Source: Candidatus Obscuribacterales bacterium
GTDB lineage: Bacteria > Cyanobacteriota > Vampirovibrionia > Obscuribacterales > Obscuribacteraceae
Direction of reading: 5' to 3'
Assembly (NCBI GenBank): GCA_965228855.1
Contig: CBDDIJ010000002.1
Span: 128,001-192,000, forward strand
DNA length: 64,000 nucleotides
The notes under the pieces were generated by a model that made no database searches, was not told the DNA's origin, and saw only the letters and a program-made list of their open reading frames with translations. This document shows, in pieces, positions 2,479-63,687 of this stretch. Each line of letters begins with the position of its first letter. Position 1 is the first letter of the stretch. The translations under genes were made by a program, and so were the position numbers.

Positions 2479-2785
2479 CTACTATATGCCAACGTATCCT
2501 CGGACTCCCAAAACCCTTCCCAGGCAGTCTTCTTCGAGGACTACTCCCGTCCCATAGCCTTGTTTTGCTCACTTTGGCTACGGTGGAATGACGGATTTTC
2601 GAAAATCCGGCAACGTACCGTAGACAAAACCCTGCTTACTATATGCCGACGTATCCTCCAATTCACGAAAACCTCTCTAGCCGGTCTTTTTCAAGGACAG
2701 CTCCTTGCTCGCCCTCTCGTTTTGCTCACTTTGGCTACGGTGGAATGACGGATTTTCGAAAATCCGGCAACGTACCGTAGACAAA
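2479..2785. repeat. Dispersed 56-bp twin-site element, two tandem half-elements (157-bp period)
   Basis: Identical cores TTTGGC-N11-GACGGA-N10-TCCGGC-N11-GACAAA at 2573-2628 and 2730-2785; outer boxes CTACTATA at 2479 and TTACTATA at 2636. Confidence 0.92.
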
Positions 2786-3222
2786 AGAATTCTTGACAAG
2801 AACACCTCGCGAACTCTTGACGACACGAACAATATCAATTGTCTCAAGCAAGCATCGCAGACGGTTTAAAGGACGATTAGACAAACTCAATGGAAAAACT
2901 CTTCAACTAGCTTGAAATAGCTCGCGGTCAATTCATAGGGTAAGCAGTCAAATCTTTTCTCTCAGTTTGAAACCGTTCACGCCAAAATCGCTGTTCCACT
3001 TCCAGTTGCACAAAGTTTCTCTGCCAGACGAGCAGCGGATAGAGAGAAGATTTTGATATTCAGCATTGACACCAGATACGGTGCAGTGCATCTCCAGCGA
3101 CTTTCGCAACACTTGCGACAAAATCGCGCAGTGCTGCTGTTTGAATGCATTGTTATCGGGCACGAATTGAAACTTCCATCGTCTGGGAGTTCAAGGTGCT
3201 CGAAGAACCCGGAGCCAAAAAC

Positions 3223-3963
3223 ATGTCCAGCAAAGCCAAAACCATCCTTGGGATTATCGCCGTGACGGCGTTCCTCGCGCTCGCCATCAACGTGCTCTTC
3301 TTCGACAAGGGACCGACGCCCCCGGTCACGACCTCGGCGAACGTCGTCGAAGTGACGGACAAGAACTTCCAGAGCGAAGTTCTCGACTCGAAGATTCCCG
3401 TGCTCATCGACTTCAACGCCACCTGGTGCGGTCCCTGCAAGACCTACTCGCCGATCTTCCACAAGGTCGCCGACCAGTACGCGGGTAAGGTGAAGTTCGT
3501 CAGCATCGACGTCGACAAGGCGCCGGCTGTGGCGAATCTTTTCGGCATCACCGCCATTCCCGCCACCGTTTTCCTGAGCGAAACCAATGGCGTCATCAGC
3601 GCCGGCGCAGCCTCGGGCGCTCTCGACGAAGCCACACTCAAGAAGCTCGTCGACTATTGCCTGACGCCTGGCGCGAAGCTCATTCCGCTCTTTGAACGCA
3701 AGAAGCCCGGTGATGCAAACGACCCCGCCGTCGCCGACCCGAACGCGCCTGCGGTGAGCGACCCGGTGACGAGCGACCCGGCGACGCCCGACCCGAACGG
3801 CGCGACGCCCAAAACGGAGGACCCGACGCCTATCATCCCGAAGGAGAACAACGCGACGCCGAAATTCGAATCGATCCCCTTCGATAAGGAGCTGCCGCGC
3901 GTCGACCCGCTCCCGAAGAACGACGGACCGCCGAAAACCGAACAAATCGTCCCGACCCACTAA
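3223..3963 (+). CDS. Membrane-anchored thioredoxin with Pro/Asp-rich C-terminal tail
   Basis: WCGPC active site; N-terminal TM helix; GGAG RBS before ATG 3223. Confidence 0.9.
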   Translation: MSSKAKTILGIIAVTAFLALAINVLFFDKGPTPPVTTSANVVEVTDKNFQSEVLDSKIPVLIDFNATWCGPCKTYSPIFHKVADQYAGKVKFVSIDVDKAPAVANLFGITAIPATVFLSETNGVISAGAASGALDEATLKKLVDYCLTPGAKLIPLFERKKPGDANDPAVADPNAPAVSDPVTSDPATPDPNGATPKTEDPTPIIPKENNATPKFESIPFDKELPRVDPLPKNDGPPKTEQIVPTH

Positions 3964-3994
3964 GCGGTCGCCCTGACCTGAACTAACCCCATCA

Positions 3995-4032
3995 AGTCCT
4001 CCCGGAAACCGCATCCGGGAGGACTCTTCTCT
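3995..4032 (+). terminator. Probable intrinsic terminator
   Basis: AGTCCTCCCGGA/TCCGGGAGGACT stem followed by a pyrimidine tract, 30 bp after the thioredoxin stop. Confidence 0.6.
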
Positions 4033-4055
4033 TCCAATTCCGCCTACAAACCCGC

Positions 4056-4303
4056 CTACTATACCCCGAAGTATCCGCATCATCCGGAGACCTCCCGCAG
4101 GGCTGGCATTCTCAGGATCAGTACTCAACGTTTCCTCACCAAAACCCTCGCTTTGGCTATCCTGCAATGACGGAATCGGCTAAATCCGTCATCGCAGGAT
4201 AGCCAAAGACTTCTTTTTCAGAAGGCGCCAAAGCGATTAAGAGCCTAAAAACCCCACCATGAGCTACTTGCCGGGATTTACGAGATACGCCCGCATATAG
4301 TAG
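4056..4303. repeat. Complete symmetric dispersed element (248 bp)
   Basis: CTACTATA at 4056, core 4152-4207, TATAGTAG at 4296-4303 (96 bp either side); an extra box lies at about 4375-4392. Confidence 0.92.
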
Positions 4304-4478
4304 TATATCGGGAGACGCCAGAGCAAAAAAAGCCCGAAAAGATGCCGTGGCGGGCGTTGCTCGATGCGCGTCTCCACGCCTGCATATAGTAACAAAACCG
4401 CACAAAAGCAATCAGAGCCGCATTACTGCGGATGATTGCCTTGAGTCCGACTGGACTCGTGCGACCTGCTAAGCATGC

Positions 4479-5138
4479 CTAAAAGCCGAGCTCTCCGCGC
4501 ACGCGGTCCAGGTTTTCCTGAACTGTCACGGCGATGTTCTTGCAGTAGTTCGGCCACTCTTCGCACACCTGCTCAGCCTGCCACCAGATCTCACGAGCCT
4601 CCACGAAGTTGCCGCGCTCGTACGTCAGGCACGCGAGTTGGTTCAGCACCTCAGCGCAGAACCAGTGATCGCGGCGAAGATGACTCTCAACCTCAGCCAT
4701 CGCGCGGTCGACGTGAGCCTGCGCCTCCTCCCAGCGATGTTGCCGGCGCGCAGCGTCGCAGGCACTGTTATGCCGCCGAGCGCGTTCCAGCGCCGCATTC
4801 ACCTCTCGGCGACTACAATGAACCGGTTCCGGCTCGACGGTGAAGTTCATGGTCGTCAACCACGAACCATTCACGCGGAGACCGTTTGCATCCGGGTGCA
4901 GGATCAACGCGGTTCCGGGCCCACTCTTACGCGGCGCCACCGCCGGCGGCACCACCACGTTAGCAGGCTTCTCAGCCTCACACCCGCCATCCTTGACGCC
5001 AGGCTTGACACCGAGCATCTGCCGCAGATGCCGGAAGTGCCGCTCTTGCTTCCGGTCTTCCCGCTTTCGCAGAAACTGCCGCACACCCACCGCCGCTAAA
5101 CCGAACAACGCTGCCGCTCCGATCAGATAGTTTCTCAT
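4479..5138 (-). CDS. Membrane-anchored TPR protein
   Basis: N-terminal hydrophobic helix; AEVLNQLACLTYERGNFVEAREIW TPR; AGGAG RBS. Confidence 0.75.
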   Translation of the reverse strand: MRNYLIGAAALFGLAAVGVRQFLRKREDRKQERHFRHLRQMLGVKPGVKDGGCEAEKPANVVVPPAVAPRKSGPGTALILHPDANGLRVNGSWLTTMNFTVEPEPVHCSRREVNAALERARRHNSACDAARRQHRWEEAQAHVDRAMAEVESHLRRDHWFCAEVLNQLACLTYERGNFVEAREIWWQAEQVCEEWPNYCKNIAVTVQENLDRVRGELGF

Positions 5139-5215
5139 CTGATGCTCCTTTTCGCCTGAAGTTTGTAAAAGTAACTGGTACTGAAATCTTGCCGCGAAAT
5201 GACCGCAGCACAAGC

Positions 5216-6166
5216 CTAGCCGTCGAAGGCTTCGGCTGTTCCGATAGCGAAGGTGAACGGTCCCGCCTCCATCGCGGCGTAAACCGCAGCGAGTTCATCA
5301 CCGTTCAGATCGACTTCGACACGCGTGCGCGTGTTGAGATCGTAGACTTCCGCGCCGCTGTCGCCGATCACGATCACCTTCATGTCTTTGAGAAACTGCA
5401 CCCGGCGGACATAGACCCGGTGCCCCGTTTCAATTCGCACACTGACACCCTTGTCCAGATCAGCAATCCAGAGATTGCATCGTCCGGTAGCCCTGTAGGT
5501 GGAGCCGGCGAAAACAGCAATTCTACCCACCGGGTGGATGGCATGGGCCCAGCACTCGAAGTCGAGATCCTCGTCCGCGCCGACAAAAGCACGCTCCAGT
5601 GAGTCTCCCGTTTCCACATCCACACAATAGACGGCACCACCCGCGGTGAGCGCCAGCACGGATTCACCTTGCCCGGTGAACATCACCCGCACGATCGCTG
5701 AGCTGCAGACTTTCCGGAGAAACCGCTCTTTGCGCACAGTCCCGTTGTTCAGATCAACCACGGCAACGCTGCCGGTCGAGGTTCCAACGGCGAGCTTGTC
5801 CCCCTGCTGGCTGTAGGCGACGGACTGGGCACGAGCGAGCGGCATCGGTTTCAGCCAGGCACCGAGAGCAACATCGTAGAACTCCACGGAGTTCACCTTG
5901 TCACCATATACGATGGCACACTCTTGGTTGCGAGCGCCGTTGATCTCGGTCTTGAGCACCGGTCGAAAAGCCATACCGAGACACGCCACAGCGTTCGGCA
6001 CTTCGACTGACACGCCGGTTTCCGTGTCAATCAACCATGGAGGCTCACCGCGCGCAACCACGCCGAGCACTCCCTTGTTAGAACCAGGCGCCGGCGAAAC
6101 CAGGTCACGAACCAGGCTCCCGCGCGCGTCGATGGCGAACTTCGTAATCGAAAAAGTTCGAGTCAT
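5216..6166 (-). CDS. WD40/beta-propeller-like protein
   Basis: Blades such as SVAYSQQGDKLAVGTSTGSVAVVDL; AAGGAG RBS before ATG 6166. Confidence 0.7.
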   Translation of the reverse strand: MTRTFSITKFAIDARGSLVRDLVSPAPGSNKGVLGVVARGEPPWLIDTETGVSVEVPNAVACLGMAFRPVLKTEINGARNQECAIVYGDKVNSVEFYDVALGAWLKPMPLARAQSVAYSQQGDKLAVGTSTGSVAVVDLNNGTVRKERFLRKVCSSAIVRVMFTGQGESVLALTAGGAVYCVDVETGDSLERAFVGADEDLDFECWAHAIHPVGRIAVFAGSTYRATGRCNLWIADLDKGVSVRIETGHRVYVRRVQFLKDMKVIVIGDSGAEVYDLNTRTRVEVDLNGDELAAVYAAMEAGPFTFAIGTAEAFDG

Positions 6167-6574
6167 GAGAAACTCCTTGTGTTGGCACCCGCACATTCGG
6201 CGAGTGTAATGCCTCTGAAAACATGAAAATCTCCTGCCCGCGCGAATCCCAACGACCATAGTCGGGCTCCTAATTAACTGCTGTAGTCTGCTTATCTGCT
6301 TGCGGCGTTTGTTGTTTCAAACAAAATTCCAGGGATTAAAACCAACCTAACAGTCCCCACCGAATTCACCAAGATCTTTTTAGGCTATAAACAGAATCAA
6401 GCATCAACGTGGAGAAGCTCACCAGAAGCAAGAATCAAGCATTCGAGAACATAAAAACTCTTAAGCGCTAGTTTGTGCCACTAAGAATTAAACTGGGAAC
6501 CAGGTAACAACTTAAGCCCGCGAGCACTACCGATATTGAAAATAAACGAAACTACTTCGCACAACACGACCTGC

Positions 6575-6821
6575 CTACTATATACCACAGCATAAGCCAA
6601 ACCGACAAAAGCCATTACCCGCATGGTTTTCAGCCAATCTTCAAGCTCACTCTTGATCGAAACCCGACAGTTTGGCTATCCCACTACGACGGAATTCGCA
6701 AAATCCGGCATTCCCTGATAGACACCGAGCCGAAAATCGACCCGCTTGAAGGTACAAAAACTTCGAAAACCACCACTGAGAAGCCATCGGGCAAAACCGT
6801 TTATACTGCCTTTTATAGTAG
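6575..6821. repeat. Complete symmetric dispersed element (247 bp)
   Basis: CTACTATA at 6575, core 6671-6726, TATAGTAG at 6814-6821. Confidence 0.9.
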
Positions 6822-6837
6822 ACTTCAGGTGAAGAAG

Positions 6838-6883
6838 CATCGACGCGGAGAGGCACCATTGCTGGTGCCTCCCTTTGTCGATG
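6838..6883 (-). terminator. Hairpin downstream of the PLD gene
   Basis: CATCGAC..GAGGCACCA/TGGTGCCTC..GTCGATG inverted repeat. Confidence 0.5.
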
Positions 6884-6902
6884 TTCCCCTCACGCCTTGG
6901 CG

Positions 6903-9254: not shown

Positions 9255-9465
9255 CCCGTCAACGAGCCAGCGACAAAATTCACCAGATCCGTCGCTCTCT
9301 GATTGACAGGGCTCCCGTCGGACAACTCTAAACTCGACCTGTCAACGAGCCAGCGACAAAATACACCAAATCCGTCGCTCTCTGATTGACAGCGCGCCTC
9401 AAAATCCATTTTGTCAACGAGCCGGCGACGAAATCCGCAAAATCCGTCGTGACGAGGAAGGTTCG
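9255..9465. repeat. Three tandem variant 56-bp cores without outer boxes
   Basis: CCYGTC-AACGAGCCAGC-GACAAA-N10-TCCGTC-GCTCTCTGATT-GACAG at 9255 and 9338, with a degenerate copy at 9410. Confidence 0.85.
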
Positions 9466-11081: not shown

Positions 11082-11099
11082 TCAAATCCCCTCAATCCA

Positions 11100-17292: not shown

Positions 17293-17504
17293 CTACTAGC
17301 TCATTCAGGGAAATGCCTACTAACTCATTCAGTATCACTTTTCTGCGCCAGTATGCGTTTTCAAGCTTCAAAATCCTACTAGCTCATTCAGTATCATTTT
17401 TCAGCGCCAGTAAGCATTTCGGGCTTTCGAGCCCCTACCAAGAGAGGGCTTGTCTACGACCGATAGACGGATTTCGGAAAAAGCGTCAATCAGTCGTAGA
17501 CAAC
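17293..17504. repeat. Dispersed element with triplicated outer box
   Basis: CTACTARCTCATTCAG at 17293, 17317 and 17376; core 17449-17504. Confidence 0.85.
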
Positions 17505-17597: not shown

Positions 17598-17865
17598 GCG
17601 CAGGTCGCTGCAATCTTGATTGCAGGTTTCCAAAGAAAAGCTGCAAACTAATTTGCAGCTCCCTGAATTTCGACTCGAACGTCAACGACTTGGTGCTTCG
17701 CGCAGGTCGCTGCAATCTTGATTGCAGGTTTCCAAAGAAAAGCTGCAAACTAATTTGCAACTGCCTGAATTTCGACTCGAACGTCAACGACTTGGTGCTT
17801 CGCGCAAGTCGCTGCAATCTTGATTGCAGGTTTCCAAAGAAAAGCTGCAAACTAATTTGCAGCTG
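17598..17865. repeat. 102-bp tandem repeat (about 2.6 copies) of twin CTGCAA-N6-TTGCAG palindromes
   Basis: Units begin at 17608, 17710 and 17812. Confidence 0.93.
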
Positions 17866-29330: not shown

Positions 29331-29614
29331 CTACTATATGCCGAAGTTTCTCCTTTCTCCCAAATCGCCTGCAAACAGGGCGTTTCGAGCAATGCCCTCC
29401 GCACCCGCCCCTTCTTTGTCTACGCCAGAGCGCCGGATTTCGCCAAATCCGTCTACGCCAGAGCGCCAAGACATTCTACTATATCCCCAAGTATCTACCT
29501 TCTCCAGGAGAGCCCGTGTCTAGAGCGTTTCGAGCAATGCCCTCCTCCGTTCCCCTCCTTTGTCTACGCCAGAGCGCCGGATTTCGCCAAATCCGTCTAC
29601 GCCAGACCGCCAAA
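29331..29614. repeat. Dispersed element, two tandem half-elements (about 144-bp period)
   Basis: Outer boxes at 29331 and 29476; cores 29415-29470 and 29559-29614. Confidence 0.92.
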
Positions 29615-31338: not shown

Positions 31339-31478
31339 TTTGTCTACGTTGCTATGACGCAATCGGCGAAATCCGGCATCGCCACGTAGCCAAACTTAAC
31401 CCACCCGAACGACCAAACCGACCAATCCCTCTCCCCCAGCCCGATTCCGGAACCCGTTTCTATGATTTTCTATAGTAG
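31339..31478. repeat. Dispersed element (core plus right box)
   Basis: Core 31339-31394; TATAGTAG at 31471-31478. Confidence 0.9.
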
Positions 31479-35872: not shown

Positions 35873-36277
35873 CCAGTGTGGAAAACAGGCCATCTTTGCA
35901 TCGATTTTGGATCGGTTTTTCACACACTGGTCCGCAGACAGTTGGTTCGCTAGTGGACTTCATCCCCGCCAACTAGCCAGAGGCGAACAGCCGACTGCGC
36001 TCAACCAATGTGTAGAAAACAGGCCATCTTTGCATCGATTTTGGATCGATTTTTCACACACTGGTCCGCAAACAGTTGGGTTCGCCAGTGGGGCCATAGT
36101 CAGCGCTCAACCAGTGTGTAGAAAACAGGCCATCTTTGCATCGATTTTGGATCGGTTTTTCACACACTGGTCCGCAAACAGCTGGTTCGCCAGTGGGGCC
36201 ATGGTCTGCTCGTCGCCCAGTGTGTAGAAAACAGGCCATCTTTGCATCGATTTTGGATCGGTTTTCTGCACACCTGG
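35873..36277. repeat. Four tandem copies of a roughly 60-bp imperfect palindrome
   Basis: CCAGTGTGTAGAAAACAGGCCATCTTTGCATCGATTTTGGATCGGTTTTTCACACACTGG at 35873, 36005, 36111 and 36217. Confidence 0.93.
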
Positions 36278-37823: not shown

Positions 37824-37963
37824 CTACTAGATCATACAGGACCTCGCCTCGACGGAGACACAGACCCGATAAGGGCTTTCGGCATCACCGTTTCAGCAGA
37901 CAGTTTCGTTGTCTACGGTGCGATGACGGAATTCGGAAATTCCGGCATCGCACGATAGACAGA
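37824..37963. repeat. Dispersed element (left box plus core)
   Basis: CTACTAG at 37824; core 37908-37963. Confidence 0.85.
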
Positions 37964-38025: not shown

Positions 38026-40923
38026 TTACACGCGGCAGCCGTGTGTGATCAGGTCGAGGCGGTCGGCAACCACTTCGGCGCTGATGTTGACGACGAGCTG
38101 CTGGTCGCGACGAATCGCCTCTTCCAGCGTGCTGATGCGGGTGCGGTCCTGGGCGACCTCGGTTTCGAGACTGGTGACGGTGGTCTCGTTGCTGGTGACG
38201 ACGGTGGTGAGCTGCTCGACGCGCTCACGGCTGACGCGGACCTTCTCGGTCAGACGAGCGATGGTGTCCTCGCCGGTCGCGACCTTCTGGGTGAGCTGCG
38301 TGACGGTGGTCTCGCCGGTCGCGATAGCGGTGTTCAGGTTCGCGATGCAGGTTTCGGTCTCGCGAATCTGAACGGAGACGCGCTCGATGTTGGTGCGGTC
38401 GGCGGCGACTTCGCCCTCGAGCCGGGTGACGGTGGTCTGGTCGCAGGCGACGACTTCAGTCAGGCGGGTCACTTCGGTGCGGTCACCGTTGACTTCGCAC
38501 TCGAGCTGGTTGACGACGGTGCGGTCCTGAGCGACCTCGCAGGTCAGCCGGGCGACAGTCGCTTCGTCGACGCAGATCTGCTGGCCGATGGTCACGATGC
38601 ACTCCTCACCTTCGCGGATCTCGGTCTCCAAACGGGTGATGTTGGTGCGATCGTTCGTGATCGCGGTGGTGGCGTTGGTGACGCGGGTCTGGTCGTTCGA
38701 AACGACCGTGGTCAGCCGGTCGACCTCGGTGCGATCGCAAGCGACGATGTCTTCGAGACGCGTCACTTCGCACTGGTCGACGCGAACGACCTCGGTGAGC
38801 TGGTCGACGACGCACTGGTCCTCACGGACCTCGCCCTGCCACTTCGTCACTTCCTCGCGGTCCGCGCAGACCTCCTGCTCGAGCCGGGTGATGTCCTCCT
38901 TGTCGGTCTGGATCTCATGCCGCAGCCGGTCGATGGTGCACTTGCCCTCCTCGATCTCGCGGCGGTCCTGCTCGATCTCGCAGTCGTCCTGCGCGATGTT
39001 AGCCAAACCGACGCAGATCTCGGTACGCAGCCGGGTGACCTCGCTCGGGTCCGCGCAGGGCTGCTTCAGCAGGTCTTCCAGCTCCTTCGTGTCCTTGAGG
39101 AGCTCGGTGCGATTCTCGTGGCGGCGCTGACGGTCGGTCTTGAGCTCCTCCTTGTCGCGCGCGAGTTCCTCGCGAGCGGCGGTGAGGTCGGTCTCGTCCT
39201 TGATCAGCTCTTGGCGGGCGCCGGCGAGATCGTGCTCGTCCTCGGTCAGCTCAGCCTGCGCGCCATTGAGCGCCGCCTGATCGCGACCGAGTTCGGCTTG
39301 CGCCTCGGTGAGCGCCGCCTGATCCGTGCTCAGGGTCTGGCGCGCCGTGGCGAGCAGCTGCTCATCGGAGGTGAGCTTGCCCTGCGCGGTGGCCAACAGA
39401 GCGGTATCGCGGGTGAGGTCACTCTGGGCGGTCACCAGCTCGCCTTGGTGACGCACCAGGTCGCTCTGCGTCTGAGCCAGCTCGGCGCGATCGGCGTTGA
39501 GCTCCGTCGTCTTGCGACCGAGCAGTTCGCGGTCCGCGACCAGCTGCCCTTGCGCGGCGGTCAAGTCGGTTTTGTCCTTGGTCAGCTCGAGCCGAGCAAG
39601 GCGCAGCGCCTCTTCGTCGCGAGCCAACTCGTCGTTGGCGCGGGTGAGCAGGAGCTGGTCGGCGGTGAGCTGGTCACGGGCCGTGCCGAGCGCCGCTTCG
39701 TCGGCGGACAGTTCGCCCTGGTAGGTGGCGAGCTGCCCCTGCTGGGTGAGGAGCAGGGTCTGCTTGACCGAGAGAGTCTGGCGATCGGTCGCCAGCTGCG
39801 ACTGCGCCGTAGTCAGGCTCTGGCGGTCCGTGGTGAGCTGCGTCTGCGCACCGGTCAGGGACGTCTGGTCGGTGGTCAGCTGCGACTGCGCGCCGGTGAG
39901 CTGAACGCGGTTGCCAGCGAGCACGGTGCGCCAGTGGTCGAGCGCCGTGACGTCGATGGTGAGTTCGCCCTGCGCGTCGGTCAGCGCGGTCTGGTTGCCG
40001 TAGAGGTCCTGGAAAACCTCGTCGAGGGCGTCGAGGTCACGCCCGAGTTCGGCGCGCAGGTCCGAGCATTCCCCGTCCGCACAGTTGCCGTTACCGGGCT
40101 GACCGTTCGGCGGGCAGTTCGCCGGCGGCTGTGGCTGCCCGGTCGGCGGGCAGTAAACGACCGGCGGCTGCGGCCGCGGACCACCGTTCGGTCCGCAGTC
40201 CACACGGATGGGGGTGTAGTCGCAGTCCCAGTTGCCGCGCGCCGGCGCGACACCGCACGCGGTACCAGCCGGCGAGCCGTCCTGGTTGACCTTGACGAGG
40301 TTCGGGCCGACGTCCCAGGTCGGAACGTTCTCCTGGCTCGTGATGGTAGTCGTGCGGTTGTCCACGGAGATGCGCTTGTTCGCGCCGTAGTCCGTGATCA
40401 CCGTCGTGATGATGTCGGAGTTCTTCGCGACCGCGTCCATCTTTATGAACGTCCCGTCGCCCAGCACGAGCGTCCGCTGCGTCGTTGTCCAGTCCGTCGT
40501 GACGCCGTTCGCGTCTTCGTGGGGGTCGCCCCACTCGCGAACTTCCTGCTCGCCGCACGGGTTCTTGATGGTCACCGTCGAGCCGGTGATGTTGATGTTG
40601 TAGCCACCGCTGGTGGTGTAGCTGATCGGCTGACCGGCCGCAGTCTGCGAAAACTGACCGTCGCACTGGGTCTGAGTCTGGATAGGCGCGGTGTTGCAGT
40701 TGGTCGGGCGGCAGATCTGCACCTGCTCGGCCTCGAGCCGGATGTCGCCGACGCGCCCCACGAGCCCGCCGAGCTGGCCGAACTCGTTGACGAACCCGAC
40801 GGTCGGCACTTCGCGCGACTCCAGGTTCTCCACGCGCAGCCCGCGCACCGCGCGGCTCTTGGCGGGGTTGTTGATAAGCGAGGTCTTCTTCTTGCTGCCG
40901 AACAATTTGTTGAACAGGTTCAT
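38026..40923 (-). CDS. LEPR-XLL/Planctomycete-type N-terminus, DUF1521-like WGDPH domain and a roughly 670-aa 14-residue-repeat coiled coil
   Basis: LRVENLESREVP; VREWGDPH; LTTDQTSLTGAQTQ and VACDQTTVTRLEGE repeats. Confidence 0.85.
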   Translation of the reverse strand: MNLFNKLFGSKKKTSLINNPAKSRAVRGLRVENLESREVPTVGFVNEFGQLGGLVGRVGDIRLEAEQVQICRPTNCNTAPIQTQTQCDGQFSQTAAGQPISYTTSGGYNINITGSTVTIKNPCGEQEVREWGDPHEDANGVTTDWTTTQRTLVLGDGTFIKMDAVAKNSDIITTVITDYGANKRISVDNRTTTITSQENVPTWDVGPNLVKVNQDGSPAGTACGVAPARGNWDCDYTPIRVDCGPNGGPRPQPPVVYCPPTGQPQPPANCPPNGQPGNGNCADGECSDLRAELGRDLDALDEVFQDLYGNQTALTDAQGELTIDVTALDHWRTVLAGNRVQLTGAQSQLTTDQTSLTGAQTQLTTDRQSLTTAQSQLATDRQTLSVKQTLLLTQQGQLATYQGELSADEAALGTARDQLTADQLLLTRANDELARDEEALRLARLELTKDKTDLTAAQGQLVADRELLGRKTTELNADRAELAQTQSDLVRHQGELVTAQSDLTRDTALLATAQGKLTSDEQLLATARQTLSTDQAALTEAQAELGRDQAALNGAQAELTEDEHDLAGARQELIKDETDLTAAREELARDKEELKTDRQRRHENRTELLKDTKELEDLLKQPCADPSEVTRLRTEICVGLANIAQDDCEIEQDRREIEEGKCTIDRLRHEIQTDKEDITRLEQEVCADREEVTKWQGEVREDQCVVDQLTEVVRVDQCEVTRLEDIVACDRTEVDRLTTVVSNDQTRVTNATTAITNDRTNITRLETEIREGEECIVTIGQQICVDEATVARLTCEVAQDRTVVNQLECEVNGDRTEVTRLTEVVACDQTTVTRLEGEVAADRTNIERVSVQIRETETCIANLNTAIATGETTVTQLTQKVATGEDTIARLTEKVRVSRERVEQLTTVVTSNETTVTSLETEVAQDRTRISTLEEAIRRDQQLVVNISAEVVADRLDLITHGCRV

Positions 40924-41903: not shown

Positions 41904-42057
41904 TTGCAAATAAGTTTGCAGTTTTCTGACCAAATCCTGCAATCTAGTTTGCAGCATACCTCTCACAACCATCCGATCGCACTAAATACACTTCAATTTC
42001 AGGTCGCTGCAATTTTGATTGCAGTTTTAAGCACAAAAGCTGCAATCAAACTTGCAG
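41904..42057. repeat. Two divergent copies of the twin CTGCAA-N6-TTGCAG element
   Basis: 41904-41954 and 42007-42057 (18-15-18 layout), 103 bp apart. Confidence 0.85.
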
Positions 42058-48228: not shown

Positions 48229-48882
48229 ATGAAGTCGTTCGTCATGGTGCCCGGCGGCAAGCTCGTCCAGCAGCACAACCGCTTCGGGGGCGAGAACAAG
48301 TACGGGCACGACCGCTTCAGCGCGCTGGAGCGCCGCCGCCGCCTCGCCCGCGTGCTCGACCGCGAGTTCGACCTCACGGTCGGCGAGATCGGGCTGAGCG
48401 TGGTCGAGCCGGAGCGCGAGGTCGAGTCGACCTGGACGGTCCTCGAGCCCTGCAGCCGCTTCCGCCACAACGTCACGTTCGTGATCGAGGGCGACACCGA
48501 CCTGGCGATCCGCGTCTACGCGGCGCGCAACGGCGGCCGCCACCCCGAGAAGGTCAGCTGCGACTGCGGCTGCGGCCCGGACTACTTCGTGACCGAGGTC
48601 GACGGCTCGCTCTGCACCGCCACCGCGCGCCTGCGCAACTGCAACGTGCGCGAGACCCGCTCCGGCGACACCGTCGTCACCGAGCTCCGCGCCCGCGCCA
48701 ACCCGAGCTCGTGGGACTACCACACGCTCGAGCAGTTCCTCGCCCGCGAGGACGTGGTGGTCATCAGCAGCGCCGACATCTCCGAGGACGAGCGCCACTA
48801 CCGGATGCCCGTCCGCACCTCGCCCAGCGACTACCCGGACGACGTCCGCACGGTCGCCTGGCTGCTGAACGCCGAGCTCTAG
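48229..48882 (+). CDS. Hypothetical Cys-containing protein
   Basis: AAGGAG RBS; very strong GC3; CDCGCG motif. Confidence 0.75.
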   Translation: MKSFVMVPGGKLVQQHNRFGGENKYGHDRFSALERRRRLARVLDREFDLTVGEIGLSVVEPEREVESTWTVLEPCSRFRHNVTFVIEGDTDLAIRVYAARNGGRHPEKVSCDCGCGPDYFVTEVDGSLCTATARLRNCNVRETRSGDTVVTELRARANPSSWDYHTLEQFLAREDVVVISSADISEDERHYRMPVRTSPSDYPDDVRTVAWLLNAEL

Positions 48883-48937: not shown

Positions 48938-49324
48938 CTACTATATGCCTTCATATCTCCGACAGTCCGCAAAACGAGCTCTACAACAGCCTTTCTAGAG
49001 ATCAGTAATGGGCGCAACGAGCTGCCAAGACCTCGTTTGGCAATGACCGATAGACAGTTTTCCGAAAATCCGGCAATCCCACGTAGCCAAACCCAATCGT
49101 TCGAAACAAAGGCTAGTGAAGCGATCGCCGGAAACATATGTGGACAAAACAGCTCCCGGCAAGAACGACTCACTACGGCTTTTAGTAATATTCAGAGACC
49201 AAAAATCTGGCAATCCCACGTAGCCAAACCCACTCGTTCGAAACAGAGGATAGGGACGCGATCGCCGGAAACATACGTGGACAGAGTCTCTCAGGCACCG
49301 ACAAGTCACTACGGTTTTTAGTAG
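48938..49324. repeat. Complete dispersed element with duplicated right half (about 137-bp period)
   Basis: Box at 48938, core 49036-49091, TTTAGTAA at 49181; second half-core 49206-49228 and TTTAGTAG at 49317-49324. Confidence 0.88.
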
Positions 49325-57049: not shown

Positions 57050-57372
57050 ACCGCACGTGGAGCGAGAGGATCGTTCGCAAATTCCAAGATTTCCCTGCCA
57101 ACGACCCGCGCAGGATATCAACGAATCATGGTCTTGACTAACCCCCGCCAGAAAATGTGCAGAATCTGCTACAAAATTTTCCTAATTTGGCCTCAAAAGT
57201 TACACATTTGCTACTACGCAATGTCGCATTTGTTTTCAAGAAACAAGAAGTCATCGAAAAGCGCATTTACTGCGCCTCTCGATGACTCCAAAAATGCGCG
57301 CCCGGTGAAGCGAGAGAGCTGGATTTACATCCAAGCCCTGCTCGCTTCACTCGGGTTGGCATGCCACCACAT

Positions 57373-58011: not shown

Positions 58012-58052
58012 GGGTAACCTCGTAAATAGTTAGACTGACGACCGAGCGGGCG

Positions 58053-59597
58053 TCAGCGTGCGCGAATGTTCTTCACGAGCTTCGCGAGGTTCGCGAGACT
58101 GATGATGTCGTTTCGTCGCGTTTCACCGTAATCGGGCACAGCGCAAAGCAGGCACTGTTCTTCATACAGCGACTTCAAAAGCAATATGGAATTGTTGTGA
58201 ATCAGCTGCGCAACGCGAGCGAATTCAACTGGGTCGACAGACTTGGACGCGTCAGTCGAGCTGGCTGCAGCTTCCATCGCCAGCACCGCCGCCGATACCA
58301 CGTGCCGAGCCTCAAGCACTTCGGAGTACTTGTTGCCGCGCGGAAGCAGCTTCGCGATTTTCTGCGCGGTTGCCTCGTCCTTGTTGCCCCAGGTCATCAG
58401 TTTCGCGAGCGACCGATCGCCCAACGACTTCAGATTCTTGTTGCAAATGGCGTCAGCCACGACCGACAGAACAGCGCTCAGGTCGCTGAGTTTCACCTCA
58501 GTGTAAACCGTTCCCGCGCTATCTTGAAACACGACCTTCTCGTGCAGAGCGCCACCACATGCGATAGCGGCTCGCTGGCGCAATTCGGTACCGTAGACTT
58601 TGGCATCATCGAGACCAAGCCGCTCCACCACCTCGATGGCGAAGAGGGCGCGTACGACATCAGCAGGATGCTCTTCGGCGCCCTTACCCGGCTCGAAACC
58701 CGCTTTGTTAGCAGACTTCTGCTCCGGGTTGTGAGCGGCAAGAACGAGCATGCCGCCGTTCGCGTACATCGGTCCCATGTTCAAAACACCGGCTGCATCG
58801 GCAAGCAGCTCCGGGAGCCACTTCTCGAAGAGCTGGAGCATGAACGCCTCGGTAGGCGCATTCTTGCTGCGTCCCAGCGAGAAAATCGAGCCGGTGCGCA
58901 TTTTGATCGTCTTGCTGACGCCAACCAGGGAGCCGGACTGGAACGCGTTCTTGATCGCATCCTGCACGTTCGACTGAACTTCAGCTTCGAAACCGACCAC
59001 GCCATCGTGAATCACATGGCCGCCAACCTCGTGCGCGTCGATCAGCCAGAGCGGAACGAACGTCGCATGGTTAGCCGGCTTCGAGATGAGAGAGACCGGA
59101 AGTTCGGCGCTCGCGGCCAGCGTGAACGGTTCAGACTTACCCATGGCAAAGAACCCGAGGGGGTCGAGCTCCGGCCAGCGCAACGTCTTGCGCGCCTCGG
59201 ATCGGACCTTCGGGTCGTCCATGAAGCGCCGATAGAAGTTGCTCGCCAGCGCTTGAAACGCTCGCAGGTTATCGGTTTGCTTGGTATCCGCGAGCTGTAC
59301 GACAGGCTGAGCCAGTGTGCTGAACACGGACTCGAGCTGAGCGATAACTCGAGCACGAGTGGCGGCGCTCCCTTTGCGAGCTGACTTTTCCGCCTGTTTC
59401 ACGGCCTCATCGAGCACATCAACGTAGGGCTGATGATAGCGAGAAGGCAATAGTCGCCGAGCATCCGCCACCGTCTTCTTGAACTTCTCGAAATCCTTTT
59501 CGTTTTGAAAAGGCTCCTGAAGAGTCACTTTCGAAGACAGGGCCAGACGCACGCGCGATAAGACTGTGGCGTAATCGCCCAGGTATTTCCGGGTCAT
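58053..59597 (-). CDS. Hypothetical protein, possible zincin (HExxxH)
   Basis: AHEVGGHVIH plus downstream ELLAD. Confidence 0.7.
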   Translation of the reverse strand: MTRKYLGDYATVLSRVRLALSSKVTLQEPFQNEKDFEKFKKTVADARRLLPSRYHQPYVDVLDEAVKQAEKSARKGSAATRARVIAQLESVFSTLAQPVVQLADTKQTDNLRAFQALASNFYRRFMDDPKVRSEARKTLRWPELDPLGFFAMGKSEPFTLAASAELPVSLISKPANHATFVPLWLIDAHEVGGHVIHDGVVGFEAEVQSNVQDAIKNAFQSGSLVGVSKTIKMRTGSIFSLGRSKNAPTEAFMLQLFEKWLPELLADAAGVLNMGPMYANGGMLVLAAHNPEQKSANKAGFEPGKGAEEHPADVVRALFAIEVVERLGLDDAKVYGTELRQRAAIACGGALHEKVVFQDSAGTVYTEVKLSDLSAVLSVVADAICNKNLKSLGDRSLAKLMTWGNKDEATAQKIAKLLPRGNKYSEVLEARHVVSAAVLAMEAAASSTDASKSVDPVEFARVAQLIHNNSILLLKSLYEEQCLLCAVPDYGETRRNDIISLANLAKLVKNIRAR

Positions 59598-60204
59598 AAC
59601 GCGCTCCTATTCTTGTTTTCGGACAGCTTCCAGTACAGCGAAAGCTGCCATGGTCCTGTCTAGGTTGCGGTTTAAAACTAGTGAAAATGCTTGTGCGTAA
59701 GAGATGAGTGATCGGAGAAAGAGAAAAAAACTAAAGCTCCCCAAAGTTACAAAGAGGGAGACGTTTACTTCAACGTTTTCGTGAATCAAGAACTTTATAC
59801 GTTTTGCAGATATCCAGATACTGACATCCGAACCCCTCTTGAGATCGACAGTTGTCGAGCACCATCTCTTTCAATTGCACGGATAACTATTCGCGCTTGA
59901 CTTCAAGAAGTCTGAGAACCCAGTTCTCAAGAGCATTTATGACTAGCGAAGCTTCACCGCATTTCCGTGCGCGAACCGCGCTTTCCTTGAACTGCGCACT
60001 AATTTCTGTTGGCTCGACTGGTCGAAGTTGCGCTTGCGAACTGGATTGCGACTGCTTTAAGTTTTGATGTCAAAAGTTTTTTTCTAAGAACCAGTATTTC
60101 TGAACGTCAAAAGTCTTCCACCGACCTGAAAATTTGAATCGCGTTTCTATTCAAACACGCGCGACGGTATCGCACGTGGTATCACAATCAGAAGGAGCCA
60201 TCCG

Positions 60205-60912
60205 ATGGATGAAGCTCAATATCTTGCGCTTGTTCGGCACGGCGAGAGCTATGCGAACGTTGAAATTGCCAAGGCAAGCGATGGGTTGTATTACGCCATC
60301 TCTGGTTCCGACCGCGACGTCGGCATCACGCCGAACGGAGAACTGGACTGCCTGAGAGCCGGTTCGATTCTCGCTCGACTCTTCCCGCGCTCTTTCCCGA
60401 TTTCCCGAATCTGGAACAGCGAGTTCCGCCGAATCTGGCAGTCCTCGGATCATATTCGCGGACATCTTCCCTATCCGGTCGAAACCGTCATCGACAAACG
60501 GCTCAACAAGCGGAGCTACGGACGGTTCTGGAACCTCACTTACGAAGGTGTTCGTGTTCTTCATGAGCACGAGGACAGCATCTACAAAGCCCTTGGTCCG
60601 CTGAAGTACCGACCGCCCGAGGGTGAGAACTTTTACGACCTGTTCGAACGCGTCGATGAGTTCATGCTCGGCGATCTCAACGAAGCGACAGGAAATCAGC
60701 TGGTCGTCGGGCACTCAGCGGTTCTGCTGGCGATGCAACGCAGCCTTGAAGGGCTGAATGACATGGAAGTCGTGCGCCAGTACGAAGACATCGCAATACC
60801 GAACGGCTACGTGATGCTCTACCGGCGAACTCGTCGAGATCAGCCATGGAAGCGAGTTTACATCTCCGATTATCTTCACGGAGAAACAGGCAAACTTCCG
60901 GAAGTCGCATAA
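60205..60912 (+). CDS. Histidine phosphatase (phosphoglycerate mutase family)
   Basis: LVRHGES, PPEGEN, VVGH. Confidence 0.9.
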   Translation: MDEAQYLALVRHGESYANVEIAKASDGLYYAISGSDRDVGITPNGELDCLRAGSILARLFPRSFPISRIWNSEFRRIWQSSDHIRGHLPYPVETVIDKRLNKRSYGRFWNLTYEGVRVLHEHEDSIYKALGPLKYRPPEGENFYDLFERVDEFMLGDLNEATGNQLVVGHSAVLLAMQRSLEGLNDMEVVRQYEDIAIPNGYVMLYRRTRRDQPWKRVYISDYLHGETGKLPEVA

Positions 60913-60931
60913 CGACTTATTCCGACTTCGA

Positions 60932-60966
60932 ACCGTGGGACTGGCCACTCAGCCAGTTTCCACGGT
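60932..60966 (+). terminator. Hairpin after the phosphatase gene
   Basis: ACCGTGGGACTGGC/GCCAGTTTCCACGGT. Confidence 0.5.
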
Positions 60967-61454
60967 CAAGTTAATGCGTCAGGAGCCACCTCCGGCTAGT
61001 GATATGAGAGCTAGCGCAAGCGCTTGACTTCATAAAACAGCTCACATCTTTGAAAGCTGTTAAAGAGTCACCGCACGCCCGACAAAGGTTTCAAAGAATC
61101 AGACGCGCGCGCGGGATTTTTAGAGCCCGTTAACCTGCACCAATACCTCTTTGAAACATGTAACAGCCCCTGGTAGGCATAAGTGTATTTCTCTCCGCTT
61201 CAACTGAAGGGCACGTCTAACCAAAAGCGGATTCCGTCTAACTAGTCTCGTTATTGATCAGCCTCTCTGTGAGTGGGTTGAGCAATACCGATTTCGCAAC
61301 CACGGACTAAGCAGAGCTAAAGCGAAAACCGGACAGCCCCTCATCCGTCAATCGCCAATCAAGACAGTGGGCGCAAATGCACCACTGCCCGCTTCTGACT
61401 TCCGTAATTCCTGTCCAAGCCAATGGTGACTTGGAATTTAACCGGAGACTTAGA

Positions 61455-63398
61455 ATGCAACACCTGAATAAGTTCGATTGGGCTCTGGGTAAGCGCGTTT
61501 TCGCGATGACCAAGCCTTACTGGACTGCCTCGGGGCCCAATCAGAAGTGGCTCCTCGGCGGCTTCCTCGCTTTCCTCCTCACCTGTGCGTGGGGTCTGTA
61601 TATCGCCTTCAGCGTCGCCACCGCTGTTCCCGTCGCCGAGCTCTGGCCGTCGGGCATCGTCAGCATGTTCCCGGCCTCCTGGGTGGACACGCACAAGTTC
61701 GTATTCGCAGGATGGGCCACCATCGCGTCGCTCGCCCTGCCGTCTGCGTACCTGTGGTTCACCCGCAAGGTGATGAACCGGGGCTGGCGCCTGCTCGGTC
61801 TGCTGATCGCGCTGCTGCTCGCCGTCAACGGGCTCAACGTCCTGTTGTCGTTCCTCAACCGCGACATGATCAACGCCCTGCAGGTGAAGGAAGTCAATGC
61901 CTTCTGGCAGTCCATCACCATCCTGGCGTCGGTCTTCATCATCGGTATTCCGATCGTCGTCTGCTACCGCTGGGTCCGCGACCTCCTCGGCAACGCCTGG
62001 AGAGAGTGGTTCACGGAAGAGATCATGGGCCTCTACTTCGCGAAGCGGAAGTTCTACAAGATCTCGCAGATGGGCACGGTCGAGAACCCTGACCAGCGTA
62101 TCTCGGAAGACGTGAAGCTCTTCACGCAGGGCGCGCTGCGCTTCATGCTCATCGTGCTCGACTCGGTCATCACCGTGCTGTCGTTCGCGACTGTGCTGTG
62201 GAGCATCTCGCACCTGCTGTCGGCGACCGTCATCATCTACGCGATCGTCGGTACCGTGGTCACCGTGCTGTTCGGCAAGCGCCTGATCGGCATCAACTAT
62301 CGCCAGGAAGAGTTCGAAGCGAACTTCCGTTACCAGGCGGTCCACGTCCGCAACAACGCAGAAGCCATCGCCTTCTACCAGGGCGAAGCCATGGAGAAGC
62401 AGAGCATCCTCTCGCGCTTCTCCGAGGCGATCAAGAACTACAACTTCCTGATCCGCTGGCAGCGGAACCTGGCGTTCTTCACGCAGGGCTACGACTACCT
62501 CGTGGTCGTCCTGCCCATCCTCGTGCTGGCGCCGCTGTACTTCATGGAGAACAGCACGGTCAACTTCGGTCAGATCATGCAGGCGAACTCGGCGTTCGGC
62601 CAGATTCTGTCCGCGCTGAGCCTGTTCGTCGCCGAATTCGCGACGCTCTCGCTGTTCGCCGCCAACGTCAATCGTCTGGGCGACTTCATGGACGAGCTGC
62701 ACAAGCCCGATGAGCCGAACACCGCGGAACATCCGCGTATGTCGGTCGCCCGCGGCGCCAACATCTCGCTGAAGAACGTCACGATGATGACGCCGGACTT
62801 CGCCCGCACCCTGGTCACCGGCGTCAACGTCGATGTCCAGCCCGGCGAAAGCCTGCTGTTCGTCGGTCCCTCGGGGTCCGGCAAGAGCTCGCTGCTGCGC
62901 GTCATCGGCGGTCTGTGGGATGCCGGCACCGGCCAGGTGACGGCGCCTGACTCGAAGGAGATGTTCTTCCTGCCGCAGCTGCCGTACCTGCCGCTCGGGT
63001 CGCTGCGTCTGCAGCTCACCTACCCGAATGCGAACAGCAAGGCCACCGACGCCGAGCTGGCTGCGGTGCTCAAGACCGTCAACCTCGATGGTCTGATCGA
63101 GAAGTTCGCCAAGGACGGCGGGCTGGACGCGGTCAAGCACTGGTCCGACGTCCTGTCGCCCGGTGAGCGTCAGCGTCTGGCGTTCGCTCGCCTGCTCCTC
63201 AACAAGCCGAAGTACGCGATTCTCGACGAAGCGTCGAGCGCGCTGGACCCGGCCAACGAAGAGCTGCTGTACACCATCCTCAAGCAGAGCGGCACGACCT
63301 TCCTCTCGGTCGGTCACCGCGAGAGCCTGCGCGCCTACCACAGCAAGGTGCTCGAGCTCGACGGCAAGGGCGGCTGGCGCATCGTCAAGGGCAGCTAA
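61455..63398 (+). CDS. ABC transporter, fused permease/ATPase (ABCD/YddA/BacA-like)
   Basis: NPDQRISED, EAIAFY (EAA loop), GPSGSGKSS, PQLPY, LSPGERQRL, ILDE, SVGHR. Confidence 0.93.
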   Translation: MQHLNKFDWALGKRVFAMTKPYWTASGPNQKWLLGGFLAFLLTCAWGLYIAFSVATAVPVAELWPSGIVSMFPASWVDTHKFVFAGWATIASLALPSAYLWFTRKVMNRGWRLLGLLIALLLAVNGLNVLLSFLNRDMINALQVKEVNAFWQSITILASVFIIGIPIVVCYRWVRDLLGNAWREWFTEEIMGLYFAKRKFYKISQMGTVENPDQRISEDVKLFTQGALRFMLIVLDSVITVLSFATVLWSISHLLSATVIIYAIVGTVVTVLFGKRLIGINYRQEEFEANFRYQAVHVRNNAEAIAFYQGEAMEKQSILSRFSEAIKNYNFLIRWQRNLAFFTQGYDYLVVVLPILVLAPLYFMENSTVNFGQIMQANSAFGQILSALSLFVAEFATLSLFAANVNRLGDFMDELHKPDEPNTAEHPRMSVARGANISLKNVTMMTPDFARTLVTGVNVDVQPGESLLFVGPSGSGKSSLLRVIGGLWDAGTGQVTAPDSKEMFFLPQLPYLPLGSLRLQLTYPNANSKATDAELAAVLKTVNLDGLIEKFAKDGGLDAVKHWSDVLSPGERQRLAFARLLLNKPKYAILDEASSALDPANEELLYTILKQSGTTFLSVGHRESLRAYHSKVLELDGKGGWRIVKGS

Positions 63399-63548
63399 CC
63401 AGCTACTCAGGACGGCGCAAACCGAAACCAGCCGAAGTCGGATACGAAGGTGTCGTGCCACCACAAGTGGTGCGACACCTTCCCGGCGGGGCGGATGGGA
63501 AGCAGCTTTCAACAGCTGTTCTTTCCCATCTCGCCTTTCAAACTCCGT

Positions 63549-63687
63549 CTACTATATAGCCTCGTATTCACTCAAGCCCGCATCCCGCTGGCGGCAAGCC
63601 TCTTGTGCCCTCATCCGGACGCCTCAAATTTTCTGTCTACGCCACATTGCCGGATTTCGTCAAATCCGTCATAGCCACGTAGCCAAA
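63549..63687. repeat. Dispersed element (left box plus core)
   Basis: CTACTATA at 63549; core 63632-63687. Confidence 0.9.

What the first reader, a model, noticed from the sequence alone, without database searches (positions are those of the whole stretch)
2479..63687. Dispersed 56-bp twin-site intergenic element family with rigid geometry: candidate undescribed recombination or chromosome-binding system
Seen: 14 cores at 2573, 2730, 4152, 6671, 9255, 9338, 9410 (degenerate), 17449, 29415, 29559, 31339, 37908, 49036 and 63632, plus a half core at 49206. All fit 6-11-6-10-6-11-6 without gaps: roughly YYYGKC-N11-GMCRRA-(WTT..AAA)-TCCGKC-N11-GMCARA. That is two GKC-N11-GMC palindromic sites 33 bp apart (about 3 helical turns). 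The N11 segments and flanks vary greatly while lengths do not. All copies are intergenic, about one locus per 6 kb. No transposase or integrase is in the window and I see no target-site duplication. Established: tyrosine-recombinase core sites are inverted arms around a 6-8 bp overlap, and integron attC sites are about 57-141-bp two-site palindromes. Inference: each site reads GKC-WW-N7-WW-GMC, which suggests a genome-wide array of recombinase-type or nucleoid-protein sites rather than a recently spread MITE.
Basis: partly seen in the sequence, partly recalled or inferred. Interest (0 to 1): 0.9.

Follow-up and report, generated by a model that had tools for sequence, protein, structure and literature searches.

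The report
Twin-site repeats with partner nuclease gene
About 200 copies of a rigid two-site DNA repeat lie between genes, mostly near the replication origin, in an uncultured relative of cyanobacteria and bracket a gene for a predicted phospholipase-D-type nuclease with a DNA-binding domain; related genomes pair other versions of this gene with their own two-site repeats, so the enzyme likely binds and spreads them, which would be a new kind of repeat-making system.

Summary
Observation confirmed and extended. The genome (Obscuribacterales) holds 211 cores at 160 loci; 175 lie in a 1.04-Mb zone around dnaA. Each core is two 17-bp dyads 33 bp apart, under purifying selection. Of 145 main-type loci, 140 carry a polar dyad (ATACKW-N7-TAGTAG) at helically phased distances, just past the terminators of GC-rich catabolic operons. 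The partner is probably not a tyrosine recombinase. 25 kb left of the window, two cores bracket a gene for a PLD (HKD) nuclease fused to a HipB-like helix-turn-helix. This family was found only in Obscuribacteraceae among the genomes searched. Its loci carry 32-34-bp twin dyads at 11 of 26 sites (nulls 2-3%). In 4 of 4 other genomes tested, the flanking twin dyad is a genome-specific dispersed family (54, 16, 7 and 5 copies). Strains swap core-only, core-cargo-core and array-gene-array units at the same slots, and two IS110 elements target the cores. It works like a REPtron but fails the REP, CGTC-REP and attC tests. Binding, cutting and spread by the enzyme are inferred, not shown. No paper or earlier scan note on this system was found.

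The parts
2573..2785 (.). two main-type cores in tandem (2573-2628, 2730-2785; period 157)
2479..2497 (-). polar flanking dyad p (TATAGTAG arm at 2479-2486, facing outward)
4056..4303 (.). complete unit p - spacer - core (4152-4207) - spacer - p, between the terminators of two convergent GC-rich genes
6575..6821 (.). complete unit p - core (6671-6726) - p; one related population carries 960 extra letters at 6566-6568
9255..9465 (.). TTGAC-subtype array of three cores (9255, 9338, degenerate 9410), no p
17293..17504 (.). core 17449-17504 with triplicated p (17293, 17317, 17376)
17609..17861 (.). second family D3: three copies of TGCAA-N6-TTGCA x2 at 33-bp pitch, period 102
29331..29614 (.). p plus two cores (29415, 29559)
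31339..31478 (.). core plus right-hand p facing the 3' end of a GC-rich operon
35876..36271 (.). third family D2 (four copies); a similar copy lies upstream of PLD-HTH paralog C2:67395
37824..37963 (.). p plus core 37908-37963
41905..42056 (.). two D3-family copies
48938..49324 (.). p, core 49036-49091, half core near 49206, and duplicated right-hand p
63549..63687 (.). p plus core 63632-63687, downstream of a GC-rich ABC transporter gene

Best explanation
The 56-bp cores are twin dyad sites that bracket a nuclease-HTH gene (C2:103074, 25 kb left of the window) and are likely bound by its HipB-like helix-turn-helix, whose PLD nuclease domain likely nicks nearby DNA and so would spread the repeats by copy-and-repair, making the system a probable REPtron analogue built on a different enzyme. 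Inferred working: one protein dimer sits on each 17-bp dyad, two dimers on the same helical face 33 bp apart. Each dimer would form one HKD active site (recalled for Nuc and BfiI). Breaks repaired from a sister or another locus would give the tandem arrays and whole-slot replacements seen, without target duplications. The main family has settled in slots between terminators of GC-rich catabolic operons near oriC, 7-10 helical turns from an older host dyad p. It is kept there by purifying selection, so it is probably partly domesticated.
For: Shown: cores lie 170 bp before and 39 bp after gene 103074. A 54%-identical paralog in G007 sits inside arrays of the related TTGAC subtype, 4 and 6 copies. 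Pfam gives PLDc_2 + HTH_3, both below the curated cut-offs. H107, K109, D114, S122, N124 and E133 are invariant in 24 of 24 aligned members. The model has pLDDT 91 and its top fold hits include NucT, PLD3, Zucchini and Nuc, with BfiI lower; the best sequence hits of the HTH are HipB and C-proteins. Twin dyads at 32-34-bp pitch lie within 900 bp of 11 of 26 full-length loci (8 of 20 outside G000 and G007), against 7 of 300 and 16 of 464 in two nulls. The flanking dyad is a dispersed genome-specific family in 4 of 4 tests: G013 54 copies, 1 of 61 genomes; G010 16, 1 of 5; G045 7, plus one 1-mismatch hit in G010; G005 5 and G006 1, 2 of 61. The central GGATTT-N4-AAATCC-type linker recurs with other arms. 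In two well-supported pairs, related proteins go with related sites. D3 and D2 lie beside paralogs 1043472 and 67395. Turnover: 12 of 90 mapped hits from other populations are not at G000 loci; two slots hold different units in G000 and G007.
Against: No binding, cleavage or mobility data. 15 of 26 full-length loci show no 32-34-bp twin dyad at my threshold. G000 has 15 TTGAC-type loci but lacks the paralog that these flank in G007. Paralog 918k has lost its HKD motif, and the G013 reading frame held a stop. Positions are mostly old: 63 of 69 loci have a core in G007 and the other 6 could not be anchored. The gain/loss sites show replacement by unrelated DNA rather than clean empty sites, except one TTGAC array. 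Coupling to p is not general: TAGTAG or TAGTAT lies within the scanned flank at 3 of 26 sides in G010, 1 of 16 in G013 and 3 of 10 in G005. The PLD domain resembles Mokosh and DrmC defence nucleases, so the dyads beside the gene could be simple autoregulatory operators.
Confidence: 0.6

Rival explanations
1. The dyads are operators of an autoregulated defence- or toxin-like PLD-HTH gene. The protein binds them, but the copies spread by host slippage and recombination and were kept as regulatory or roadblock sites at operon ends.
For: HipB and C-protein-like HTH; the PLD matches MkoC in 24 of 24 members; a core lies in the gene's upstream region; purifying selection, 4.9% against 14.9% at fourfold sites; TrmBL2, an HTH+PLD-fold chromatin protein, is among the fold hits.
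Against: Copies also lie just downstream of the gene and in tandem arrays. Convergent gaps are favoured, 52 of 125 against 22 of 278, unlike operators. The catalytic motif is invariant in the aligned set. New families recur lineage by lineage.
Confidence: 0.2
2. Core plus p is a host transcription device, either an activator platform driving outward antisense promoters or an insulator, that shuts off or bounds the GC-rich operons; the nuclease link is incidental.
For: p points into the 3' end of 108 of 278 GC-rich genes and into 0 of 280 5' ends within 260 bp. A strong hairpin follows p in 87 of 99 such cases. Core-to-p distances are phased: 75, 86-88, 96-98, 107-110. The two bases before TAGTAG are mostly TA only in G000 and G007, giving a -10-like hexamer.
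Against: p exists without cores across the genus (84 matches against 2 for an N9 control) and its -10-like bases vary there. No RpoN. It does not explain why twin dyads follow PLD-HTH genes in other genomes. It may still describe a secondary role.
Confidence: 0.1
3. The sites are tyrosine-recombinase (dif- or attC-like) crossover sites.
For: Arms around a 7-bp centre; two family-restricted XerC-like genes lie inside the zone; modest inverted identity of the two N7 segments, 3.51 against 2.82 +/- 0.12.
Against: Both genes lack catalytic residues and occur in core-less genomes. RYYYAAC and GTTRRRY match 0 of 422 half-cores. There are 117 different N7 among 320. No inversion at a core in the 800 kb compared with G007.
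Confidence: 0.04
4. The cores form a centromere-like or nucleoid-anchoring array for the origin region (RacA/ram or XerD/XDS type).
For: 175 of 211 copies lie in 13% of the genome around dnaA and the skew minimum. XerD binding at non-dif sites to unload SMC is a precedent (PMC11840125, passages).
Against: The distribution follows the GC-rich operon ends, not distance to oriC. Five congeners have no exact core match. Copy numbers of other families are small.
Confidence: 0.06

Closest known systems
REPtron: RAYT/TnpA-REP with GTAG REPs, REPINs and BIMEs (PMC8266576, passages; PMC3733652, abstract and passages)
   Same: A nuclease gene bordered by its cognate palindromic repeats; many more copies dispersed between genes, mostly downstream and in convergent gaps; tandem clusters; lineage-specific repeat families; IS110 targeting (REP targeting by IS110 seen as search listings PMC1525189 and 10.1101/2025.01.17.633520).
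   Different: The enzyme is a PLD/HKD nuclease plus XRE HTH, not HUH/Y1 (no PF01797 match). There is no GTAG foot (0 of 422). The repeat is a pair of dyads at fixed 33-bp pitch with weak stem covariation, pointing to double-stranded recognition. The copies cluster near oriC and are phased to a host dyad.
CGTC-tagged REPs (PMC3733652, passages)
   Same: CGTC or CGGC tags followed often by AT face outward from the core centre (393 of 422 halves); no HUH transposase partner.
   Different: The defining 8-9-bp stem with a 4-5-nt loop after the tag is found in 2 of 422 halves.
HipB and restriction-modification C-protein operators (PDB hits; tandem-operator layout recalled)
   Same: XRE-type HTH; paired dyads near the protein's own gene.
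   Different: Fused to an apparently intact nuclease domain; up to about 200 dispersed copies, mainly at gene 3' ends.
PLD-family nucleases Nuc, NucT, Zucchini, BfiI; defence proteins MkoB/MkoC and DrmC; TrmBL2
   Same: PLD fold with HxKxxxxD-GSxN-E motif.
   Different: Compact PLD-CxxC-HTH order with no helicase. I found no report of a PLD nuclease with cognate dispersed repeats. TrmBL2 has the HTH first (recalled).
Integron attC and Xer dif-like sites (features recalled)
   Same: Two-site palindrome of about 56 bp near gene 3' ends.
   Different: No RYYYAAC or GTTRRRY ends, symmetric gap-free arms, no cassette arrays, no active cognate recombinase.

Membership tests
GTAG REP / REPtron | HUH (Y1) RAYT gene in the genome | tested here: not met
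   PF01797: 0 matches in G000 (95% complete); control rang in 6 of 14 genomes
GTAG REP / REPtron | GTAG tag at the 5' foot of the hairpin | tested here: not met
   0 of 422 half-cores
GTAG REP / REPtron | cognate nuclease gene bordered by the repeats, with dispersed copies elsewhere | tested here: met
   the gene is PLD-HTH, not RAYT
GTAG REP / REPtron | enzyme cleaves cognate single-stranded repeat | not testable with these tools
   needs purified protein
CGTC REP | tag followed by 8-9-bp stem and 4-5-nt loop | tested here: not met
   2 of 422 halves
Integron attC | RYYYAAC ... GTTRRRY ends | tested here: not met
   0 of 422 at either end
Integron attC | covarying bottom-strand hairpin with extrahelical bases | tested here: not met
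   MI at most 0.33 for stem pairs; gap-free symmetric arms; only a weak inverted N7 excess
Tyrosine-recombinase core sites | catalytically complete recombinase that co-distributes with the sites | tested here: not met
   in-zone paralogs have R to K, a deleted Lys loop and H to Q; present in core-less genomes
MITE (DDE-mobilised) | target-site duplication and conserved interior | tested here: not met
   no TSD excess; spacer identity 29%
Sigma-54 enhancer-promoter | RpoN in the genome | tested here: not met
   PF04552: 0 matches; control rang in 4 of 14
PLD-superfamily nuclease (for the partner protein) | HxKxxxxD plus GSxN and Glu in a PLD fold | tested here: met
   invariant in 24 of 24 aligned; fold hits; activity untested
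Rfam RNA family | match at gathering score | tested here: not met
   0 matches in the window

The most novel reading that the evidence does not exclude
A phospholipase-D-family nuclease fused to a fast-diversifying helix-turn-helix acts as a domesticated mobiliser of its own twin-operator repeats: a REPtron invented independently of HUH enzymes and working on double-stranded DNA. Changing the HTH founds a new repeat family. In this lineage one family has colonised the ends of a separate, GC-rich, origin-confined catabolic gene set and may now regulate it.
Probability: 0.45. Interest if true: 0.93.

Novelty: categorically new. Interest (0 to 1): 0.86.

Why it matters
How dispersed bacterial repeats arise and spread is known in outline only for RAYT and GTAG REPs; CGTC and untagged families have no assigned enzyme (PMC3733652). 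Here a second, unrelated enzyme class comes with several natural protein-site pairs of one geometry. That makes recognition rules, cleavage and spread directly testable, and could give a small (257 aa) site-specific nuclease scaffold with swappable specificity. The work also exposed an origin-confined set of about 350 GC-rich catabolic and second-copy genes whose operons end at these elements, an unexplained piece of genome organisation in Obscuribacteraceae.

Tried and rejected
Rfam: nothing. RAYT: none. Sigma-54: no RpoN, and only a partial activator hit. Single-subunit phage-type RNA polymerase, suggested by a recalled likeness of p to phage promoters: no PF00940 match, but the control rang nowhere, and two recalled motifs found nothing. 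GIY-YIG: 3 matches; I judged by coordinates that none is bracketed by cores. XerC-like pseudo-recombinases as binders: rejected on co-distribution. Pfam scans of 193 small basic proteins from the zone, a filtered subset, gave no convincing regulator; the G007 copy of the PLD-HTH protein was in that set and scored no family at 1e-7. Replichore orientation: not informative, since the core is near-palindromic. Direct or inverted copying of p spacers across a locus: no signal. The palindrome search had an unfair reversed control and was replaced by the N7/N9 pair. Viral contigs: 0 matches. GC-rich genes as recent foreign or phage DNA: orthologs in congeners are also GC-rich and largely syntenic; 3 of 30 had PHROG hits; one gene shows a graded series of homologs, two of them labelled Melainabacteria. 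Expression: no RNA holder listed, and the laid runs were contigs only. The window's own 624-aa PLD gene is unrelated to the partner. The all-against-all BLAST timed out and was redone on a subset. The wide fold search was not run. Literature searches that found nothing on this system. Scan look-ups with nothing matching; one search returned two RAYT notes only.
Full report
OBSERVATION. The pattern GKC-N11-GMC-N16-GKC-N11-GMC occurs 13 times in the window against 0.14 expected. The degenerate copy at 9410 and the half core near 49206 are present. The window is G000:C2:128001-192000 of an 8.2-Mb genome. In the genome the exact spacing gives 213 matches, any other tested spacing 3-44. A PWM gives 211 copies, 0 in the reversed genome, at 160 loci; 3 of 211 overlap my gene calls (home-made caller). 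Most named records carrying the pattern are titled Ca. Obscuribacterales. Among 41 relatives the exact pattern is found in G000 (151), G007 (135) and G006 (2, on short contigs) only; there is no match in viral contigs.

ANATOMY. Each site is a 17-bp dyad, GKC-(TA/AA/AT/GC)-YS-NNN-SR-(AT/TT/GC/TA)-GMC; the centres are 33 bp apart, around a GGATTT-N4-AAATCC linker. Stem covariation is weak (MI at most 0.33). The two N7 centres of one core are somewhat more often inverted copies than chance, 3.51 against 2.82 +/- 0.12 of 7, with 7 of 160 perfect. I read this as double-stranded protein sites with occasional internal conversion. Against G007 (800 kb fetched, about 93-95% identical), 77 aligned cores differ at 4.9% of positions with no gap between the first GKC and the last GMC, while the 100-bp flanks differ at 12% and fourfold sites of ordinary genes at 14.9%. 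Cores at different loci share a median 64%, spacers 29%, and there is no target duplication. The family is therefore old and constrained. Tandem copies (periods 72-73, 144-146, 156-158 and others) vary in number between strains.

THE LARGER UNIT. Reading outward, 215 of 320 flanks carry TAGTA(G). It is one arm of a polar dyad, p = ATACKW-N7-TAGTAG. Centre-to-centre distances from the nearer core site peak at 75, 86-88, 96-98 and 107-110 bp, that is 7 to 10 helical turns. 140 of 145 main-type loci have p, against 1 of 15 loci of the TTGAC subtype. p is older than the core. My sums give 84 matches with N7 against 2 with N9 in the 8 genus genomes, 45 against 13 in 29 other family genomes, and 32 against 26 in 24 genomes outside the family. 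In core-less congeners it often stands alone after a terminator (output partly cut).

GENOMIC SETTING. 175 of 211 cores lie in C2 77-1121 kb, around dnaA at 793 kb and the cumulative skew minimum at 789 kb. The same zone holds 354 genes with GC3 above 0.72; C3 has 1 such gene among about 2,760. These genes run towards the elements: p points into the 3' end of 108 of 278 and into 0 of 280 5' ends within 260 bp. 17 p's do face such 5' ends, all 244 bp or more away. A strong hairpin follows in 87 of 99 3'-facing cases. Of 150 scanned G007 orthologs, those with a Pfam match are largely peptidases, lipases, beta-oxidation enzymes, glycosidases and transporters, and many have no match. Several are divergent second copies of ordinary genes. 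Ribosomal genes are not GC-rich, and orthologs in congeners are GC-rich too. I cannot explain this compartment.

TURNOVER AND PARASITES. 63 of 69 G000 loci have a core in G007; 6 could not be anchored. Of 99 hits from other populations, 78 map to G000 loci, 12 do not and 9 did not map, most of those with chance-level scores. Two of the 12 fall on cores that are IS-interrupted in G000; the other ten mark six places where G000 lacks the core. In the alignments I could read, G000 has unrelated DNA or another repeat family there, with one fairly clean TTGAC-array indel (output partly cut). Two IS110-type elements sit in cores: 3 of 3 copies at one position and 4 of 4 at another (Pfam for the second; the first by visible similarity).

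THE PARTNER. One replaced slot (C2:1002 kb) holds a gene related to C2:103074, which has a core 170 bp upstream and another 39 bp downstream. Both have a PLD-like domain plus an XRE helix-turn-helix, mostly below Pfam cut-offs. G000 has five paralogs, all in the zone. One lies beside a D3 array (TGCAA-N6-TTGCA twice, 46 copies, only at 33-bp pitch) and one beside a D2-like repeat. G007 has an extra 54%-identical paralog inside 4 + 6 TTGAC-type cores, at a slot where G000 has a single main core. At another slot G000 has a degenerate paralog and G007 a core-cargo-core unit. The family is found in 22 of 36 family genomes and 0 of 24 others (some hits cover the PLD part only) and in 0 of 200 further phylum genomes. 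It is very diverse: 324 clusters at 50% identity with E up to 1e-10. HxKxxxxD, SxN, a Glu and a CxxC are invariant in 24 of 24 aligned members (five candidate rows were left out). The AlphaFold model (pLDDT 91) matches NucT, PLD3, Zucchini, Nuc, TrmBL2 and BfiI. By sequence the HTH is closest to HipB and C-proteins and the PLD part to MkoC and MkoB.

CO-OCCURRENCE TEST. Of 33 loci I dropped 6 partial hits and 1 duplicate ortholog. 11 of the remaining 26 have a twin dyad at 32-34-bp pitch within 900 bp, 8 of 20 when G000 and G007 are excluded. The nulls give 7 of 300 and 16 of 464. The arms differ from genome to genome, but the pitch and often the A/T linker recur. I then searched four of these flanking dyads, chosen for clear arms, and each is a dispersed family nearly private to its genome: G013 54 copies, G010 16, G045 7, two of them bracketing the gene, G005 5 and G006 1. 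In the tree, the 103074 and G007-paralog proteins group at 100/99 and have related sites; the G005 and G006 proteins group at 100/100 and share a site. That is two pairs only, and the deep branches are weak. Phasing to p is not a feature of these other families.

MECHANISM. Shown: geometry, selection, flanking of the gene, family-by-family pairing, slot replacement, IS110 targeting. Recalled, not from any call: single-HKD PLD nucleases work as dimers with one active site and a phosphohistidine intermediate, BfiI can transesterify, and HipB and C-proteins bind paired operators. Inferred: two PLD-HTH dimers occupy the twin dyad on one helical face and nick nearby DNA; repair then duplicates or transfers the repeat, with or without cargo, which fits the lack of TSDs and fixed ends. 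The main family likely succeeded because slots between convergent terminators are safe, and it may be aimed or retained through p. A secondary role at operon ends (roadblock or antisense promoter) is open. I give this reading 0.6; operators spread by host processes 0.2; a host transcription device 0.1; an origin anchor 0.06; recombinase sites 0.04.

COMPARISON. It works like a REPtron (PMC8266576, passages; PMC3733652, abstract, outline and passages) but is not one: no HUH enzyme, no GTAG foot, no CGTC-REP stem, no attC ends. PMC11840125 (passages) was read for the XerD/XDS precedent. All other papers were seen as search listings with abstract openings only; no supplement was opened. Searches for this lineage's repeats, its codon compartment and PLD-HTH with repeats found nothing relevant. 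The library lacks most subscription papers, and ISfinder and REP catalogues could not be searched.

VERDICT. A real, selected, lineage-specific repeat family with a probable dedicated PLD-HTH partner, repeated with other sequences across Obscuribacteraceae. Novel in enzyme class and recognition geometry; the mobilising step is unproven. Interest 0.86.

Noticed in passing
G000:C2 about 62-1121 kb and the end of C5 (includes the window): About 350 genes with GC3 above 0.72 are interspersed with ordinary genes only around oriC. They are catabolic or second-copy genes, GC-rich in congeners too, with lower fourfold divergence (8.8% against 14.9%) and a GC-favouring substitution balance. One gene in the window (48229-48882) has GC3 of 1.0.
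   Followed up: partly
L347:2074-2847 (G000:C2:103074-103847); paralogs at C2:67395, 918k, 1002489, 1043472: PLD nuclease + CxxC + XRE HTH family; the 918k copy has lost the HKD motif.
   Followed up: yes
L013:1147-2031 and L011:1150-2061 (G000:C2:369829, 923144): Two XerC-fold proteins lacking the catalytic Arg, Lys loop and His; the first is 90-93% identical in six congeners. Possible domesticated DNA-binding proteins of unknown target.
   Followed up: partly
G000:C2:774697, 858558, 1120767 and C2:197206, 987644, C5:860952, 1461411: Two IS110-type elements, each at 99.8-100% identity between copies, inserted only in cores at two fixed positions; usable for bridge-RNA target prediction.
   Followed up: partly
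G000:C5:1113-1209 kb, C3:954-1068 kb, C3:1507-1533 kb: A palindrome AACCGATATCGGTT, 32 matches in three tight clusters, none in the origin zone; parS-like clustering, unexplained.
   Followed up: no
G000:C2:754907 R, 1110628 L, 721792 L; C3:1620122 L: p lies 24-26 bp before start codons that have their own -10-like hexamer just upstream, placing p near the -35 region of apparently leaderless promoters.
   Followed up: no
G000:C2:103004 and 8 other places: A motif AATTGAACTTTTT upstream of the PLD-HTH gene (also in the G007 paralog) recurs near other genes; possible shared regulator site.
   Followed up: no
G000:C2:707292, C3:444928, C3:3546826: Three of 19 sigma-70-family genes end next to a core; one is a GC-rich paralog inside the zone.
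   Followed up: partly
G000:C3:724518-727973: Array of 21 tRNA calls, with a core nearby at 729320.
   Followed up: no
G000:C2:1-62 kb, C4 second half, C1: GC-rich blocks without cores or p and with a different codon pattern; island or binning contamination.
   Followed up: partly
window 38026-40923: 965-aa GC-rich secreted-type protein with long 14-residue-period repeats and no Pfam match.
   Followed up: no
L073-L075: True cores on one contig of a record titled Acidobacteria; one maps at 82-90% to G000 C2:564 kb, so probably mis-binned.
   Followed up: partly
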